Shown here: one piece after another, positions 2,344 to 39,944 of the stretch
Layout of the letters: each line of letters starts with the position of its first letter
How positions within the stretch are numbered: the stretch's first letter is position 1
Notes under the pieces: model-generated
Told to the model about the DNA's origin: nothing
Database searches by the model: none
The model's input: only the letters and a program-made list of their open reading frames with translations
From: an uncultured Candidatus Saccharibacteria bacterium
GTDB taxonomy: Bacteria; Patescibacteriota; Minisyncoccia; Phycocordibacterales; JAKFXT01
Assembly (NCBI GenBank): GCA_964541455.1
Contig: CAZIPS010000005.1
Span: 1 to 59,468, forward strand
DNA length: 59,468 nucleotides
Reading direction: 5' to 3'
Position numbers and translations under genes: made by a program

Positions 2344-2359
2344 CCGTTCCATCACCCCA

Positions 2360-2387
2360 CCCCCGCTTCGGCCGGGGGTTTTGTTTT
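2360..2387 (+). terminator. Intrinsic terminator (CCCCCGC-TTCG-G(C)CGGGGG plus T-run)
   Basis: GC stem at 2360-2378 followed by TTTTGTTTT. Confidence 0.75.
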
Positions 2388-3308: not shown

Positions 3309-3430
3309 GCGGAAACTATACGGCGCCCCAAACGCCCTACATTGCACCGGTCCCACAAAACGCCGGCGCAACGGGGATGTATGAACCCCCGCGGATCATC
3401 TACTACTTCCACTGACACAACCCGCAACAC

Positions 3431-3452
3431 CCCCCGCTTCGGCGGGGTTTTT
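3431..3452 (+). terminator. Intrinsic terminator CCCCGC-TTCG-GCGGGG plus T5
   Basis: Stem 3432-3437 / 3442-3447, UUCG-type loop, TTTTT at 3448-3452. Confidence 0.75.
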
Positions 3453-4099: not shown

Positions 4100-4118
4100 G
4101 GCACCCATCATTCCTGTA

Positions 4119-4143
4119 CCCCCCGCTTCGGCGGGGGTTTTTA
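4119..4143 (+). terminator. Intrinsic terminator CCCCCCGC-TTCG-GCGGGGG plus T5
   Basis: Same hairpin core as at 3431 and 8988. Confidence 0.8.
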
Positions 4144-8058: not shown

Positions 8059-8087
8059 TTGACATCAACAAAAAAACGATGTATTGT
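8059..8087 (+). promoter_or_regulatory. Sigma70-type promoter of high-GC cassette D
   Basis: TTGACA (8059-8064), 17-nt spacer, TATTGT (8082-8087). Confidence 0.55.
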
Positions 8088-8134
8088 ATTGCCGGGCATT
8101 TCGCCCATTTTGCTGTTCTTCCAAGGAGAGATTC

Positions 8135-8980
8135 ATGAAAAGGTTTTTGCTCGGAGTCATCTGCTGCCTCTTGGCCATATCGGCAAATGGCGCAGTGGTG
8201 ACATCGCAATTCACGATAGACGTCGTGCCCTGGCTCGCGCCAAACGTCTTTGGCTCCCCCTCATTCGGGGCAGCAGAAGCGAACGCCGTGCAGGGCATTT
8301 ACGCCGGTGCTGCGACCTACGGCCCCGCCGGACCAGAACAGTTCAACAAAACCACGGGTCCTGTTTCAACTGCGGAAGTGGTGGTCACTGGCTTCACAAG
8401 CTGGAGGGGACAAATTGATCCCGGTACCAACTTCGGCACAGCCTATGCCAACGAACTTGGCAACCGCATGACCTTCGGCGTCAGGATCGAAGGACACAAC
8501 GGAGCACAATTCTCAATCGGCCAGATGGCGTTCAGCGCCACAAGTACTGACCCCTTCAACGCGTTGGCTTTCGGCTTCAATGCCGGAGCCTACAACTACG
8601 GCGCAGGCTACATCGGTATCCTCTACGGAACCGACGGAATGTTCGGCGGAGGAGATGACACGTTCATCACCTCAGGACCAAACAACCAGCTAGTTGACGC
8701 CTTGGTCGGGCGTGGTAGCGGCAACAGCTTCGCCGCCTACTGCAGCGGTATCTGCGACCAGATCGATCAACAGGCCGCGCTCGATGCGGTGGCAGCCTAC
8801 CCAGGGACCCCCTTCGAGTTCACCGGAACCTACCGGCTCATGGCGGGGACCCAGGTACTTGCCGTAGGAGAAGGCACATTCGAAATCGGCAACAACGTGC
8901 CAGAGCCCGGAAGTCTTCCCCTCTTCGGCGCTGCCTTCCTCGGCATCGCCGGCTTACGGATCATGAAACGAAAATCATGA
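8135..8980 (+). CDS. Secreted PEP-CTERM sorting-domain protein, high-GC cassette D
   Basis: Start set at MKRFLLGVICCLLAISANGA (signal peptide) with an AAGGAG SD 8 nt upstream. The C-terminus VPEPGSLPLFGAAFLGIAGLRIMKRKS is a canonical PEP motif plus TM helix plus basic tail. Confidence 0.8.
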   Translation: MKRFLLGVICCLLAISANGAVVTSQFTIDVVPWLAPNVFGSPSFGAAEANAVQGIYAGAATYGPAGPEQFNKTTGPVSTAEVVVTGFTSWRGQIDPGTNFGTAYANELGNRMTFGVRIEGHNGAQFSIGQMAFSATSTDPFNALAFGFNAGAYNYGAGYIGILYGTDGMFGGGDDTFITSGPNNQLVDALVGRGSGNSFAAYCSGICDQIDQQAALDAVAAYPGTPFEFTGTYRLMAGTQVLAVGEGTFEIGNNVPEPGSLPLFGAAFLGIAGLRIMKRKS

Positions 8981-8987
8981 TTCGCCC

Positions 8988-9014
8988 CCCCCCGCTTCGG
9001 CGGGGCTTTTGTTT
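8988..9014 (+). terminator. Intrinsic terminator CCCCGC-TTCG-GCGGGG plus CTTTTGTTT
   Basis: Stem 8990-8995 / 9000-9005. Confidence 0.75.
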
Positions 9015-27888: not shown

Positions 27889-27987
27889 GCAGCCAAACAG
27901 CTCTTGTATTTTTATAATTTTGTGTTAATATAATTTTCAGTAATTTGACCCCCCCACGGCCAGTGGCCAGAAACTTAGGAGTCTCAC

Positions 27988-28431
27988 ATGTTGCACTTTT
28001 TCTCCCGAAACAACCTCCCTTCCATTGCTGATCTCCCCGCAGGGGCGGGTCTCAAGACGCGTTCCCTCGGCCAGTGGGCAGAGCTCAAGAATCCAGACGG
28101 ACCTCTGCAGGTTGGTGACGTGCTCTACTGCCTCAATCCTGATGGTGAAGTGATGGAGTACACCATTATCAGCAATGACCCTGGATTGACTGAAATTTCG
28201 GGGGCTAATCGAGTTCTTCTCACACAACACATCGACAAACTGGAATTGACCACAAGGACCATGAACTGCCTTCTTGCCGAGAGAATTGAAACAATCGGCG
28301 ACCTGATCAGGAAGACGGAACCCGAAATCCTAGTAATCCCAAACCTGGGAAGGAAGTCTCTCAACGAGATCAAGGAGGTGCTTGCTTCCAAGGGACTGAC
28401 GCTGCGAAAGACGCCACTCCCCAACCCCTGA
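27988..28431 (+). CDS. Stand-alone RNA polymerase alpha-subunit C-terminal-domain (alpha-CTD)-like protein, high-GC cassette E
   Basis: The C-terminal about 65 aa ([58 protein letters not shown]) match the alpha-CTD helix-hairpin-helix pattern. The N-terminal about 80 aa are unrelated. TAGGAG SD 6 nt upstream. Confidence 0.75.
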
Positions 28432-28447
28432 AGCGTTTGCCTCACCT

Positions 28448-28475
28448 CCGCCGCGGAGTACCGCGGCGGCTTTTC
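28448..28475 (+). terminator. Intrinsic terminator CCGCCGCGG-AGTA-CCGCGGCGG plus CTTTT
   Basis: Perfect 9-bp GC stem. Confidence 0.75.
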
Positions 28476-28526
28476 ATTTATACTCCTTCTACCCCATAGG
28501 AGTCTCCTATGGGGTAAAAATGTAAG

Positions 28527-28561
28527 TAAAAAATACTACACTTTAGATGTAGTATTTTTTA
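28527..28561 (-). terminator. Intrinsic terminator of rpoD
   Basis: ATACTACA / TGTAGTAT stem with A-run and T-run flanks, 23 nt after the rpoD stop. Confidence 0.6.
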
Positions 28562-28583
28562 CTTAGTCTCTCTATTTTTTAAA

Positions 28584-29894
28584 TTAGTAATTCTGCAAAC
28601 GATTAGACTTCTGATGCTCACGAATCTTCTGGTGCGCCTTAGCTTCAATCTGGCGAATACGCTCACGAGTAACACCGAACTCACGTCCTACTTCTTCAAG
28701 TGTGTGAGTAATGCCATCCATAAGCCCGTTACGCATTTCTAGAATCTTACGCTCCTTTGGTGAGAGATCGTCAAGGATCTCTTTGACTTGATCAGCCAAA
28801 ATACGCTGCGAAGTTTCTTGATCTGGCGAAATAATTTTATCGTCCGCGATAAAATCTCCGAGCACCGAGCGACCATCATCATCCTCACTCCCTACTGGCG
28901 CTTCAAGCGACACGGTATCTTGGTTGATTTGTTCGATAGTATAGATCTTATCTACCTCAACTCCCATTTCAACAGCAATCTCCTCAGGTAGTGGGTCACG
29001 TCCCAAATCTTGTGAAAGACGGCGCACTACTTGTTTGTACTTAGCGATAGTTTCTACCATATGCACTGGGATACGGATGGTACGACTTTGATCCGCAAGA
29101 GCACGAGTAATAGCCTGACGAATCCACCACGTAGCATAGGTTGAAAACTTGAAGCCCTTGGTATAGTCGAACTTATCCACCGCCTTAAAGAGTCCAAGGT
29201 TCCCTTCTTGGATAAGATCAAGGAGGGTGAGGTCGGGACTGCGACCCACATACTTTTTAGCGATAGACACCACGAGACGGAGGTTGGCACGAGCAAGCAA
29301 GTTTTTGGCTTCTATGTCTTCCTCCACAATACGTTTTGCAAGATCGCGCTCTTCTGCTGCATTAAGGAGCGGATACTGCCCGATTTCCTTTAGATACATC
29401 TGAATAGAGTCATATGTATCAGAGGATGAGCCACCTTTATAACTATAGCGTTTATGTTCCTCTGGACTTGGTTCAATGTTAAGCATCCCTCCCCCTTCAA
29501 GCACATCGATGCCTGCCGTTTGGAACTTTTCGTATAATTCATCAAGGAAAGAAATATTCTCCTCAATTGTAGGGAACTCTTTTAGAATCTCATCATAGGT
29601 AACGAAACCACGCTCACGCCCCTTAGAGATAAGTGCATCTGACTTTTTCTGGAACTCCTGCTCTTTTTTCCCAAGTTTTACTGCAACCACCTTCGCTGGT
29701 TTTGCAGTTACCTTTTTAGCTTTGGGATGTTTGGCGAGCGTCTTTTTTACATTCGCTTTTTTTAACTTTTTGAAAAGTGTTTTCGTAGGCTTTTTTACCT
29801 TTGTCTTTGCAACCTTTTTGGTTGTTTTTGAGGGAGTTTTTTTCCCCTTTTTTACTACCTTCTTTTTAGCGGTCTTAGCGACTTTTTTAGACAT
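28584..29894 (-). CDS. rpoD: Primary-type sigma-70 factor with a histone-H1-like Lys-rich N-terminal extension
   Basis: Regions 1.2, 2 ([19 protein letters not shown]...[10 protein letters not shown]), 3 and 4.2 ([23 protein letters not shown]). The first about 78 aa are K/A/T/P-rich. Confidence 0.9.
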
Positions 29895-38894: not shown

Positions 38895-39944
38895 TCAGCC
38901 GGAAACGCCACTTGCCATCCTAAAGTCGGCTTCTGTTTCCCGGACCGCCGCCGCCCTAGCTTTCTCACTCAGAAGGCGCCTTTGGCCCTTGCGAATTGTG
39001 CGGATCTCCTGAAGGAACCGTCCTGCCTTTGATCTCGCCACCACGGCCTCCTCAAGAGTTTTGGCTGGCCTCGGCACCCTATCTAAGCACAGGTAATCAG
39101 GGAGTTTCGTCTGGAGTGCTATTTCGAGCAGTTTCGCCTCACATGCTTCGGACAGGTCAAGCATATAGGGACGGAGCAGATTGAGCTCGCCGATGTGGTC
39201 GAGAACTTCCACCATCCAGGGTTTTGCTACCTCGAGCTGCTCCCACTGCACGCTCATTGCCTGCTTTTCTTCTTCCTTCAGCCACGAGTCAAGTACAGGC
39301 GCGCGGATTTGAAAGAGGGTACGCGCCAAAGTACAAAGGAACTCGTGAACCTTCTTCGCTGTTGAGCTCCCCCTTTCGTGTCGAGCTGGAAAGTTGACGA
39401 AGCCCTCCTCAGGGTCGTTTCGGAAAAAGTGTTGAATCATCGGGAAAAGATCCCCGAGAATATGCCTTTCCCAAAAAGGGCTTAGGCCATGTCTCCCCTC
39501 TCCTTCTGGCGTTTGAGCAAAAACCTTGCTGGTCACAACATCAAGTGCCTTGCTTGCAACCATTCGGCGCAAGTCAGAAACCGATACCAGCTGTGGGTTG
39601 CCATTAGCGTCGCGGGCCATGGTGATATGCTTGTCAGAATCGCCCACTTCGCCCCTCATGAGACTGAAAGACGACCAACCATCTGCCACTCGCAAATAGA
39701 AGCCGGCCTTGTCCTTATATGCATACTCTTTCTCTGCGTAGTGACGACGCTGAAGTGGAACATCGAAGCCCGAGAGGAGGAGCCCCACCATCTCGTGGTA
39801 AGTAGCTCCATGCCAACGGACCAGCCACTCGTGCCAGTTCTTTGTAGGAAGAACCTTCCTTTTGTTGAGCGGGAGTATGCCGTCGATCAAAGCATTTTCT
39901 GCCGCAATGCGCTCCTCCACAACTCGATCAAAAAGTGACATCAC
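38895..39944 (-). CDS. Hypothetical protein (349 aa), high-GC cassette F
   Basis: Long clean ORF. TTGACA at 40041-40036 (minus strand), a purine-rich SD and its own terminator. No domain recognised. Confidence 0.65.
   Translation of the reverse strand: MMSLFDRVVEERIAAENALIDGILPLNKRKVLPTKNWHEWLVRWHGATYHEMVGLLLSGFDVPLQRRHYAEKEYAYKDKAGFYLRVADGWSSFSLMRGEVGDSDKHITMARDANGNPQLVSVSDLRRMVASKALDVVTSKVFAQTPEGEGRHGLSPFWERHILGDLFPMIQHFFRNDPEEGFVNFPARHERGSSTAKKVHEFLCTLARTLFQIRAPVLDSWLKEEEKQAMSVQWEQLEVAKPWMVEVLDHIGELNLLRPYMLDLSEACEAKLLEIALQTKLPDYLCLDRVPRPAKTLEEAVVARSKAGRFLQEIRTIRKGQRRLLSEKARAAAVRETEADFRMASGVSG

What the first reader, a model, noticed from the sequence alone, without database searches (positions are those of the whole stretch)
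27945..28475. Orphan RNA polymerase alpha-CTD protein encoded beside the rpoB-rpoC-dnaG-rpoD block
Cassette E encodes a 147-aa protein. Its last 65 aa or so follow the alpha-subunit C-terminal domain pattern ([53 protein letters not shown]). Its first 80 aa are unrelated and Pro/Gly/Asp-rich, and there is no alpha N-terminal dimerisation domain.

It is high-GC and carries its own SD and terminator. Its terminator lies about 110 nt from the rpoD stop, and the two genes converge. A free alpha-CTD could bind UP-element DNA or the activators that normally contact alpha, so it could act as a decoy or adaptor that reprograms transcription. That would be a plausible payload for a horizontally acquired cassette.

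A perfect 12-bp hairpin (28490-28516) separates its terminator from the rpoD terminator.
Basis: partly seen in the sequence, partly recalled or inferred. Interest (0 to 1): 0.65.

Follow-up and report, generated by a model that had tools for sequence, protein, structure and literature searches.

The report
Foreign-type free RNA polymerase alpha-CTD gene
A tiny-genome (Paceibacteria-type CPR) wastewater bacterium carries one extra small gene for a free copy of the DNA-docking tail of RNA polymerase's alpha subunit; the copy is of the beta/gamma-proteobacterial type rather than the bacterium's own, so it was acquired from outside, and what it does is untested.

Summary
ORF 27988-28431 (+) encodes 147 aa. 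Residues 77-140 are a genuine RNA polymerase alpha-CTD: Pfam PF03118 E 3e-21, and the AlphaFold model lies 0.4-0.8 A from solved E. coli alpha-CTD.

It is not a broken rpoA. The genome has an intact 318-aa rpoA with its own CTD on another contig. The orphan CTD is 68-71% identical to betaproteobacterial RpoA and 60% to E. coli, but only 48% to the resident RpoA, and a tree places it among beta/gamma-proteobacterial sequences.

GC3 is 0.62 against a genome mean of 0.38. Sixty relatives lack the gene, including four congeners. Eight independent assemblies carry it unchanged.

It occupies a slot whose -35 box and terminator are shared with the sister species, where they flank a GNAT-like gene instead.

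All DNA-contact residues are kept. Substitutions avoid conserved sites (p = 6e-5), yet dN is ten times that of true rpoA and is concentrated on protein-contact surfaces.

The N-terminal 76 aa are acidic, mostly predicted disordered, and without homologues.

Non-RpoA alpha-CTD proteins recur in about 5% of 401 genomes of the class, so this is a new member of a catalogued but uncharacterised kind. A decoy or adaptor role is plausible but unproven, and no evidence of expression was found.

The parts
27904..27931 (+). Promoter-like element of the slot: -35 TTGTAT (27904-27909), 16-nt spacer, TGn + TAATAT (27926-27931). The -35 context CTCTTGTATTT is identical (11/11) in sister species G001.
   Evidence: Consensus match only; no transcript start was mapped.
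27977..27981 (+). Shine-Dalgarno AGGAG, 6 nt upstream of the ATG. A strong SD is found before only 12 of 314 long ORFs of this genome.
27988..28431 (+). Orphan gene, 147 aa plus stop. GC 0.53 and GC3 0.62 (genome GC3 0.38 +/- 0.06).
27988..28215 (+). N-terminal half (aa 1-76): acidic (pI 4.6) with no signal peptide or TM segment. Residues 1-34 are predicted disordered; residues 35-65 form a low-confidence beta-hairpin. There is no full homologue anywhere. Residues 49-76 weakly resemble part of a Big_9/cadherin-like 'DPDGDxLxYxxxSSDP' repeat.
28216..28407 (+). Alpha-CTD domain (aa 77-140, equal to E. coli alpha 252-315). The DNA itself matches a betaproteobacterial rpoA nucleotide profile over 28232-28407.
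28448..28479 (+). Intrinsic terminator: CCGCCGCGG-AGTA-CCGCGGCGG plus a T-run. It is 27/28 identical to the terminator in the same slot of G001, where it follows a GNAT-like gene.
28490..28516 (.). Perfect 12-bp palindromic hairpin (ACCCCATAGGAG-TCT-CTCCTATGGGGT). It is single-copy in this genome; similar hairpins occur at several sites in congeners G002 and G003.
28523..28565 (-). AT-rich 19-bp terminator hairpin of rpoD, shared in diverged form with G001. It marks the far boundary of the slot.

Best explanation
The gene is a lineage-specific, horizontally acquired accessory gene. It encodes a cytoplasmic protein made of an acidic, largely unstructured 76-residue N-terminal extension and a fully folded RNA polymerase alpha-CTD.

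The CTD descends from a beta/gamma-proteobacterial-type RpoA. It probably came through an already free-standing paralogue rather than by direct clipping of an rpoA gene. It is not a duplicate of the resident rpoA.

The gene sits in a fixed expression slot between the AddA-like helicase gene and rpoD. The slot's -35 box and terminator are orthologous to those of the sister species; only the leader and ORF have been exchanged.

Because it lacks the alpha N-terminal domain, the protein cannot assemble into RNA polymerase (inference from established alpha-subunit biology). All residues of the DNA-binding '265 determinant' are kept, while the activator- and sigma-contact surfaces have diverged.

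I therefore infer that it binds A/T-rich minor-groove (UP-element-like) DNA in trans. In that role it would compete with, or substitute for, polymerase-borne alpha-CTD at some promoters, or tether another factor there.

Shown: domain identity, fold, foreign descent, insertion site, and constraint on the fold. Inferred: DNA binding, any effect on transcription, and expression itself.

The confidence of 0.6 below refers to the whole statement. I put the identity-and-origin part at about 0.85 and the functional mechanism at about 0.3.
For: Domain and fold:
- Pfam E 3.4e-21 and PDB sequence matches at E about 1e-18.
- AF2 pLDDT 93-98 over aa 80-140.
- Foldseek rmsd 0.4-0.8 A over 64 residues to E. 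coli alpha-CTD, with only alpha-CTD hits.

Foreign descent:
- 71% identity to beta RpoA against 47% to the resident RpoA.
- The best 80 of at least 592 matches in 185,579 species genomes are all Betaproteobacteria.
- In the tree the CPR RpoA clade has 99/95 support, and the orphan falls in the proteobacterial group supported at 95/85.
- A beta rpoA nucleotide profile hits 28232-28407 at E 2e-24.
- GC3 is 0.62 against 0.38 +/- 0.06.

Recent arrival:
- The gene is absent from 60 relatives, including 4 congeners.

Not an artefact:
- It is identical in 8 assemblies from several studies and present in more than 15 wastewater or sludge runs.

Slot:
- The terminator is 27/28 identical and the -35 box 11/11 identical with G001, which has a GNAT-like gene there.

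Constraint:
- 1 of 26 universally conserved sites changed against 19 of 37 variable sites (Fisher p = 6e-5).
- R265, N268, C269, N294, G296, K298 and S299 are all retained.
- Synonymous sites are saturated, yet the frame is intact.

Precedent:
- Other non-RpoA alpha-CTD proteins occur in the class.
- A beta-type stand-alone (P0068) lies on 62-64% GC contigs.
Against: - No transcript evidence: the one metatranscriptome that carries this organism's helicase gives no contig over the orphan, and no RNA run holds it.
- No polymorphism exists in the gene, so selection within this lineage cannot be measured.
- dN is ten times that of true rpoA. This fits relaxed constraint as well as new function.
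- The constraint on the fold may have acted in a previous host.
- The N-terminal half has no homologue and no confident fold.
- The genome-contig scan was seeded on exact peptides such as KSLNEIKE, which favours beta-type sequences.
- The 64-column tree leaves the position within Proteobacteria unresolved.
Confidence: 0.6

Rival explanations
1. Neutral passenger. The ORF is a chance chimera of imported DNA (an alpha-CTD-coding piece behind unrelated sequence) that landed in a slot providing a promoter and terminator. It was fixed in a nearly clonal population by drift and has no function in this organism.
For: - It is a singleton with no full-length relative among 5.8 billion proteins.
- The N-terminal half is disordered and unmatched.
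- dN is ten-fold elevated relative to rpoA.
- There is no expression evidence.
- The population has no informative variation.
- The +1 frame of 28031-28117 faintly resembles RpoA residues 173-198 (p about 0.01). That would fit a scrambled rpoA 3' fragment.
Against: - Substitutions avoid conserved alpha-CTD sites (p = 6e-5), and all DNA-contact residues are intact.
- The frame is open despite saturated synonymous divergence from every rpoA.
- A good SD sits at ideal spacing in a genome where SDs are rare.
- Non-RpoA alpha-CTD proteins recur in the class.
- The rpoA nucleotide profile does not extend upstream of the CTD, and the in-frame protein profile stops at residue 76.
Confidence: 0.25
2. 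Cross-phylum mimicry. The protein copies the alpha-CTD of Betaproteobacteria, the dominant neighbours and possible hosts of this episymbiont-type bacterium in activated sludge. It would act on their transcription factors or DNA after transfer into the partner cell, or it would neutralise partner- or phage-derived factors that target alpha-CTD.
For: - The CTD is of beta type, not CPR type.
- The organism lives in wastewater and activated sludge.
- G045, from another family, carries a GC-rich cassette with a proteobacterial-type stand-alone alpha-CTD.
- Earlier scan notes report other-phylum-type alpha-CTDs in other CPR genomes (leads only, not checked here).
Against: - There is no signal peptide or hydrophobic segment, and no secretion or injection genes lie next to it.
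- The surfaces that contact activators and sigma (D259K, K271L, position 287, K291V, T292I, G315R) are the parts that have diverged from the beta type. A mimic should do the opposite.
- The host of this lineage is unknown.
Confidence: 0.07
3. Fragment of a disrupted rpoA, or an assembly or binning artefact that joins proteobacterial DNA to a CPR contig.
For: The domain is otherwise found at the end of rpoA, and the composition is foreign.
Against: - An intact 318-aa rpoA with its own CTD lies on contig C2.
- The same junctions on both sides were assembled independently eight times with 0 mismatches in the gene.
- The best nucleotide identity to any beta rpoA is only 66%, so this is not contaminating proteobacterial DNA.
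Confidence: 0.02

Closest known systems
C-terminal domain of bacterial RNA polymerase alpha subunit (RpoA alpha-CTD; Pfam PF03118; E. coli structures 1COO, 1LB2, 3K4G, 3N97)
   Same: - Same fold: rmsd 0.4-0.8 A.
- 60% identity to E. coli and 68-71% to Betaproteobacteria.
- All residues of the DNA-binding 265 determinant are present: R265, N268, C269, N294, G296, K298, S299. The roles of these residues are taken from my knowledge of the E. coli literature; their positions are mapped.
   Different: - There is no alpha N-terminal domain and no flexible linker, so it cannot be part of core polymerase.
- Residues of the sigma-contact and activator-contact surfaces are changed (D259K, K271L, position 287 Pro, K291V, T292I, G315R).
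- The proteobacterial tail 'GMKLENWPP' is replaced by 'RKTPLPNP'.
- The non-synonymous rate is ten-fold higher.
Uncharacterised non-RpoA 'alpha C-terminal domain-containing' proteins. Examples: NCBIfam PRK07758; metagenomic P0002, P0068 and P0086; CPR second copies in G045, G338, G282, G069, G212, G046, G194 and G008.
   Same: - A short protein with a C-terminal alpha-CTD behind an unrelated N-terminal module.
- Sporadic distribution: about 20 of 401 genomes of the class.
- P0002 and P0068 share derived residues with the orphan (T264/T266 in P0002, R315 in both) and group with it in the tree.
- G045 is likewise a GC-rich insert in an AT-rich CPR genome.
   Different: - The N-terminal half is unique: it is not a coiled coil, a zinc ribbon or a sigma-region-4 HTH as in the others.
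- No sigma4-domain partner is fused or adjacent, unlike P0002, G069, G212 and G046.
- Its CTD is the closest of all these to genuine beta RpoA.
- None of these proteins has been studied experimentally, as far as the searchable library shows.
Phage 'morons' and genomic islets: self-contained gene units of deviant composition inserted between conserved genes
   Same: A single ORF of deviant GC with promoter, SD and terminator lies between two conserved genes. It is absent from close relatives.
   Different: - There is no phage or mobile-element context, no integrase and no flanking direct repeats (PHROGs gave no hit).
- The promoter -35 box and the terminator are shared with the sister species around a different gene, so they belong to the site and not to the incoming unit.

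Membership tests
RNA_pol_A_CTD domain (Pfam PF03118) | Significant match to the family profile above the curated cut-off | tested here: met
   75.2 bits against a cut-off of 23.8, E 3.4e-21, residues 77-133; 76.4 bits in the genome scan.
RNA_pol_A_CTD domain (Pfam PF03118) | Compact helical alpha-CTD fold with a helix-hairpin-helix DNA-binding element | tested here: met
   AF2 pLDDT 93-98 over residues 80-140 with helices 89-97, 103-107, 111-116 and 122-134. Foldseek: 8y5t_A2 TM 0.94 at rmsd 0.4 A; 1lb2_E TM 0.93 at rmsd 0.8 A.
RNA_pol_A_CTD domain (Pfam PF03118) | DNA-contact residues of the 265 determinant (R265, N268, C269, G296, K298, S299) | tested here: met
   All are present as R90, N93, C94, G121, K123 and S124 (alignments). 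Actual DNA binding was not tested.
Bacterial RNA polymerase alpha subunit (RpoA; NCBIfam TIGR02027 / PRK05182) | N-terminal dimerisation and core-assembly domain (PF01000 + PF01193) | tested here: not met
   No hit to these families. RpoA equivalog models score 39-84 bits against cut-offs of 228-523 and match only their last 63-69 positions or so. The beta RpoA profile aligns only positions 248-311.
Bacterial RNA polymerase alpha subunit (RpoA; NCBIfam TIGR02027 / PRK05182) | It is the genome's only source of alpha-CTD (that is, a split rpoA) | tested here: not met
   The resident rpoA (318 aa, contig C2) has its own CTD at 61 bits.
Sigma4 + alpha-CTD accessory proteins (fused or adjacent, as in G069, G212, G046 and the P0002 operon) | A sigma-70 region-4-like HTH in the same protein or in an adjacent co-oriented gene | tested here: not met
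   There is no Sigma70_r4 hit in the orphan. The neighbour rpoD is convergent and separated by two terminators.
Ig-like Big_9 / cadherin-like repeat (N-terminal half) | Match across the ~90-residue repeat | tested here: not met
   Only profile positions 33-60 of 96 align, at 12.0 bits. None of 2000 shuffles reaches this, but it is far below a domain-level match. No Pfam hit. Single stretches score at most 14.5 bits.
Mobile gene cassette (integron- or phage-moron-like) | Recombination site, integrase or phage context, or signals carried by the unit itself | tested here: not met
   No repeats flank the unit, and there are no PHROGs or PADLOC family hits of note. The -35 box and terminator are shared with G001 around a different gene.

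The most novel reading that the evidence does not exclude
CPR/Patescibacteria repeatedly capture the alpha-CTD of the RpoA type of the bacteria they live on or beside (here Betaproteobacteria of activated sludge). They keep it as a free protein in dedicated expression slots. On this reading the module is a molecular mimic used in the interaction with that partner or its phages, and the phylogenetic type of a CPR genome's orphan alpha-CTD would then predict its partner's phylum.
Probability: 0.07. Interest if true: 0.8.

Novelty: new member of a known kind. Interest (0 to 1): 0.42.

Why it matters
Free-standing alpha-CTD proteins are listed in domain databases, but I found no experimental study of any of them. 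This one has three useful properties:
- The CTD is very close to the well-studied E. coli domain, so established assays can be applied.
- The DNA-contact residues are intact while the protein-contact surfaces have drifted.
- Its origin is datable and cross-phylum, and its insertion site is defined.

It is therefore a convenient test case for whether a polymerase tail released from the enzyme acts as a transcription modulator.

It also documents, at base-pair resolution, how a reduced CPR genome swaps the coding content of a slot while keeping the slot's promoter and terminator.

If the foreign type of the domain reflects the organism's partner, it would give a sequence-based clue to CPR host range. 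That remains speculative.

Tried and rejected
1. Disrupted or split rpoA: rejected, because an intact rpoA with its own CTD lies elsewhere.

2. Assembly chimera: rejected.

3. Gene conversion with the resident rpoA as the cause of the eight CPR-like residues in the CTD: no tract was found. The longest shared nucleotide run is 8 nt.

4. The N-terminal half as a full Ig-like domain: the large summed E-values come from many weak repeats of at most 14.5 bits each. An independent repeat HMM aligns only 28 residues.

5. The N-terminal half as a frame-shifted remnant of the rpoA alpha-NTD end: only a +1-frame hint at p about 0.01. It is supported by neither the nucleotide profile nor the in-frame profile, so it is left as a hint.

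6. L039 (Caldimonas) as a full-length homologue: it is an ordinary rpoA-rplQ locus.

7. A shared betaproteobacterial donor for all GC-rich cassettes of the window: not supported. The PEP-CTERM cassette family spans Acidobacteria, Alphaproteobacteria and a CPR MAG.

8. Phage or defence-system origin: no PHROGs hit, and only a marginal PglW HhH match.

9. Expression: one metatranscriptome was uninformative and no RNA run was found.

10. Literature: seven searches found no paper on free-standing alpha-CTD proteins. One search was badly framed and returned only irrelevant papers.

11. Single-sequence AlphaFold was uninformative (pLDDT 40).

Full report
**1. What is in the sequence**

The window has an ORF at 27988..28431 on the + strand, 147 codons plus stop. 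The frame opens only three codons upstream of the ATG. An AGGAG lies at 27977-27981, six bases before the ATG.

The ORF is followed by a 9-bp all-G-C hairpin with a T-run at 28448-28479 (-20.2 kcal/mol). Next comes a perfect 12-bp hairpin at 28490-28516 (-20.3 kcal/mol, z = -5.5). Then comes the AT-rich terminator of the convergent rpoD gene at 28523-28565.

Local GC reaches 0.57-0.61 at both ends of the gene, against about 0.42 in the flanks. Upstream, on the opposite strand, is a UvrD/PD-(D/E)XK helicase-nuclease gene. Downstream are rpoD, dnaG, rpoC and rpoB.

**2. The C-terminal half is a genuine alpha-CTD**

- Residues 77-133 match Pfam RNA_pol_A_CTD at E 3.4e-21, 75 bits against a cut-off of 23.8.
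- RpoA equivalog models of NCBIfam match only with their last 63-69 positions or so and stay far below their cut-offs. So the protein contains the domain but is not an RpoA.
- Solved E. coli alpha-CTD chains match at E about 1e-18. Orphan residues 77-139 align to E. coli 252-314.
- With an alignment of 33 sequences, AlphaFold models residues 80-140 at pLDDT 93-98.
- The model superposes on E. coli alpha-CTD at 0.4 A (8y5t_A2, TM 0.94) and 0.8 A (1lb2_E, TM 0.93). All top structural matches are alpha-CTDs.

**3. It is not the genome's own alpha-CTD**

The genome is 721 kb in 24 contigs and 99% complete. Earlier notes of this scan call it Paceibacteria-type CPR. It has exactly two PF03118 matches: the orphan and a full-length 318-aa rpoA on contig C2 with its own CTD.

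The identities of the orphan CTD to other alpha-CTDs are:

| Compared with | Identity |
|---|---|
| Resident RpoA CTD | 47-48% |
| Consensus of CPR RpoA CTDs | 49% |
| E. coli | 60% |
| Consensus of betaproteobacterial RpoA | 68% |
| Individual beta sequences | up to 71% |

- In a scan of one genome for each of 185,579 species, the best 80 matches were all Betaproteobacteria: Comamonadaceae, Rhodocyclaceae, Rubrivivax, Accumulibacter, Thauera and others.
- That scan is seeded on exact peptides such as KSLNEIKE, which favours this type. The less biased word-index search over 5.8 billion proteins gave the same picture.
- In a maximum-likelihood tree the CPR RpoA CTDs form a clade with 99/95 support. 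The orphan falls in a group supported at 95/85 with proteobacterial RpoAs. It sits in an unresolved beta/gamma cluster on a long branch of 0.41, against about 0 for true RpoAs.
- A nucleotide profile of beta rpoA genes recognises window 28232-28407 at E 2e-24 and nothing on either side.

**4. It is a recent arrival in a conserved slot**

- None of 60 relatives, including four genomes of the same genus, has the gene. They match only through their rpoA, at 28-48% identity.
- The orphan's GC3 is 0.62 against 0.38 +/- 0.06 for 315 long ORFs of the genome.
- A strong SD precedes only 12 of 314 long ORFs.

In the closest relative, G001, rpoD is 85% identical and the helicase gene 79% identical at the DNA level. 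There the same interval holds a 203-aa GNAT-like gene and a 248-aa gene.

Two short elements are nevertheless shared between the genomes. The -35 context CTCTTGTATTT is identical at 11/11, followed by a -10-like hexamer. The terminator TCCGCCGCGGAGTACCGCGGCGG-TTTT is identical at 27/28, and in G001 it closes the GNAT-like gene.

So the promoter and terminator belong to the site, and the leader plus ORF were exchanged. This agrees with earlier notes of this scan on GC-rich, SD-led orphan genes in fixed slots of this genome. I treated those notes as leads and tested the point here for this slot only.

The gene is not an assembly artefact. Eight assemblies from several studies carry it with both junctions and without a single mismatch. 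More than 15 wastewater or activated-sludge runs hold the stretch.

**5. How the domain has evolved**

All seven DNA-contact residues known from E. coli are retained (R265, N268, C269, N294, G296, K298, S299). Their roles come from my knowledge of the E. coli literature; their positions come.

- Of 26 sites identical in beta and CPR RpoAs the orphan changed one. Of 37 variable sites it changed 19 (Fisher p = 6e-5).
- Against beta rpoA genes, synonymous sites are saturated: pS 0.72, compared with 0.60 among beta genes.
- dN is ten times higher: 0.34 against 0.034.
- The excess lies in E. coli positions 252-292 (pN 0.375). The helix-hairpin-helix loop and the last helix, positions 293-314, are almost unchanged (pN 0.08).
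- The changed positions include D259K, K271L, position 287 (Pro), K291V, T292I and G315R. In E. coli these positions lie on the sigma- and activator-contact surfaces (my knowledge).
- Eight of the orphan's differences from the beta type coincide with the CPR consensus. No nucleotide conversion tract with the resident rpoA exists; the longest shared run is 8 nt.

The simplest reading is a long-diverged free-standing paralogue. It was selected for fold and DNA binding and released from the contacts a polymerase-borne CTD must keep. The data cannot say whether that selection acted in this lineage or in a former host.

Such paralogues exist. P0068 (108 aa) lies on 62-64% GC contigs beside HxlR and an exosortase-associated EpsI gene. 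P0002 (124 aa) shares T264, T266 and I292 with the orphan. It sits four bases upstream of a sigma-70 region-4 protein in an AT-rich contig.

**6. The N-terminal half**

Residues 1-76 are acidic (pI 4.6; the CTD has pI 9.0). They have no hydrophobic segment, so there is no signal peptide or membrane anchor. Residues 1-34 are predicted disordered and residues 35-65 form a low-confidence beta-hairpin.

No protein among 5.8 billion shares this half. An exhaustive HMMER search of 1.84 billion representatives with residues 1-80 returned giant Ig-repeat proteins at E down to 8e-29. Those values are sums over up to 19 repeats of at most 14.5 bits each.

An HMM of the repeat, built without reference to the query, aligns only residues 49-76 to positions 33-60 of 96. 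The score is 12.0 bits, and none of 2000 shuffles reaches it. I read this as a short motif resemblance ('[17 protein letters not shown]' against 'DPDGDxLxYxxxSSDPxV'), not a domain.

In the +1 frame, 28031-28117 faintly resembles RpoA residues 173-198 (21 of 2000 shuffles score as high). Neither the nucleotide profile nor the in-frame profile supports an rpoA origin of this half. Its origin is open.

**7. How common such proteins are**

Among 401 genomes of the class, about 20 have a second PF03118 match. The ones I read carry the CTD behind various N-terminal modules:

- coiled coils in G338 and G045;
- a Cys4 motif in G282;
- sigma-region-4-like HTH segments in G069, G212 and G046.

G045, from a different family, is another GC-rich insert (GC3 0.59 in a locus of GC 0.39), and its CTD also groups with proteobacterial sequences.

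Earlier notes of this scan list many more stand-alone alpha-CTDs in CPR genomes, some said to be of another phylum's type (not checked here). Seven searches of the paper library found no study of any free-standing alpha-CTD protein. Work with isolated alpha-CTD uses purified fragments, for example PMC2801614.

**8. Most likely mechanism, and its limits**

Without the N-terminal domain the protein cannot enter core polymerase. With an intact 265 determinant it should bind A/T-rich minor-groove DNA of the UP-element kind.

It could therefore occupy such sites in competition with polymerase-borne CTD, or recruit something there. The acidic, disordered N-terminal tail might modulate binding. This mechanism is inference, at about 0.3.

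No transcript was seen. One metatranscriptome has an exact contig over the helicase gene but none over the orphan, and no RNA run holds the gene. Contig data cannot show absence.

- The neutral-passenger rival stays at about 0.25.
- The cross-phylum mimicry idea is at about 0.07. It is weakened because the protein-contact surfaces are exactly what has diverged from the beta type, and because there is no export signal.

**9. Verdict**

The gene is real, foreign in descent and sits at a defined, conserved slot. It is a new member of a catalogued but unstudied kind of protein. Proximity to rpoD is probably incidental. Interest is moderate.

Noticed in passing
window 27889-28583, compared with L031 (G001:C1:24500-31500): The helicase/rpoD interval is a variable slot. 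G001 has a GNAT-like 203-aa gene plus a 248-aa gene there. The -35 box (11/11) and the first terminator (27/28) are conserved between the two species around unrelated ORFs.
   Followed up: yes
window 28490-28516; L028 (G002) positions 94 and 889; L029 (G003) position 1506: The 12-bp palindrome CCCCATAGGA-NNN-TCCTATGGGG is single-copy here. It recurs at several sites in congeners. In G002 it is twice followed by the same ~40-nt sequence (gtaagtcaca..aaacgggaac..tttgtccgg), which suggests a small repeated element or a shared regulatory hairpin.
   Followed up: partly
window 2358-2381, 3429-3452, 4118-4141, 8987-9010: A family of near-identical GC-rich terminators (CCCCCCGC-TTCG-GCGGGGG-TTTT) closes the other high-GC islands of the window. 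All high-GC ORFs share GC3 of 0.59-0.67 against a genome mean of 0.38.
   Followed up: partly
window 8084-8980 (+): A high-GC ORF has a PEP-CTERM sorting signal (Pfam E 2.6e-5) in a CPR genome. Its family has over 300 members at 47-63% identity. Named sources include Acidobacteria, Phenylobacterium and a 'Minisyncoccota' MAG. One 98%-identical variant exists (P0177).
   Followed up: partly
L131 (metagenome contig, 989 bp) 16-390 and 394-930: The stand-alone alpha-CTD protein P0002 is followed 4 nt later by a 178-aa protein with a sigma-70 region-4 domain. The same two modules are fused in single proteins of G069, G212 and G046 (L121, L123, L118). This recurrent alpha-CTD + sigma4 pairing may be a functional unit.
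   Followed up: partly
L129 (metagenome contig) 508-1113 and 1172-1483: A naturally split rpoA: the alpha N-terminal domain (201 aa) and the alpha-CTD (103 aa) are separate adjacent genes between rpsD and rplQ.
   Followed up: no
window 38895-39944 (-): A 349-aa high-GC ORF (GC3 0.59) with no Pfam match lies between trmD and the rpoB promoter region.
   Followed up: no
L006 (Logan SRR32910815 contig), compared with window 28584-29894: One strain has 17 SNPs in rpoD and 3 in dnaG but none in the 676 bases that cover the orphan and its flanks. This could be a recombination tract in rpoD or a recent sweep of the slot.
   Followed up: no
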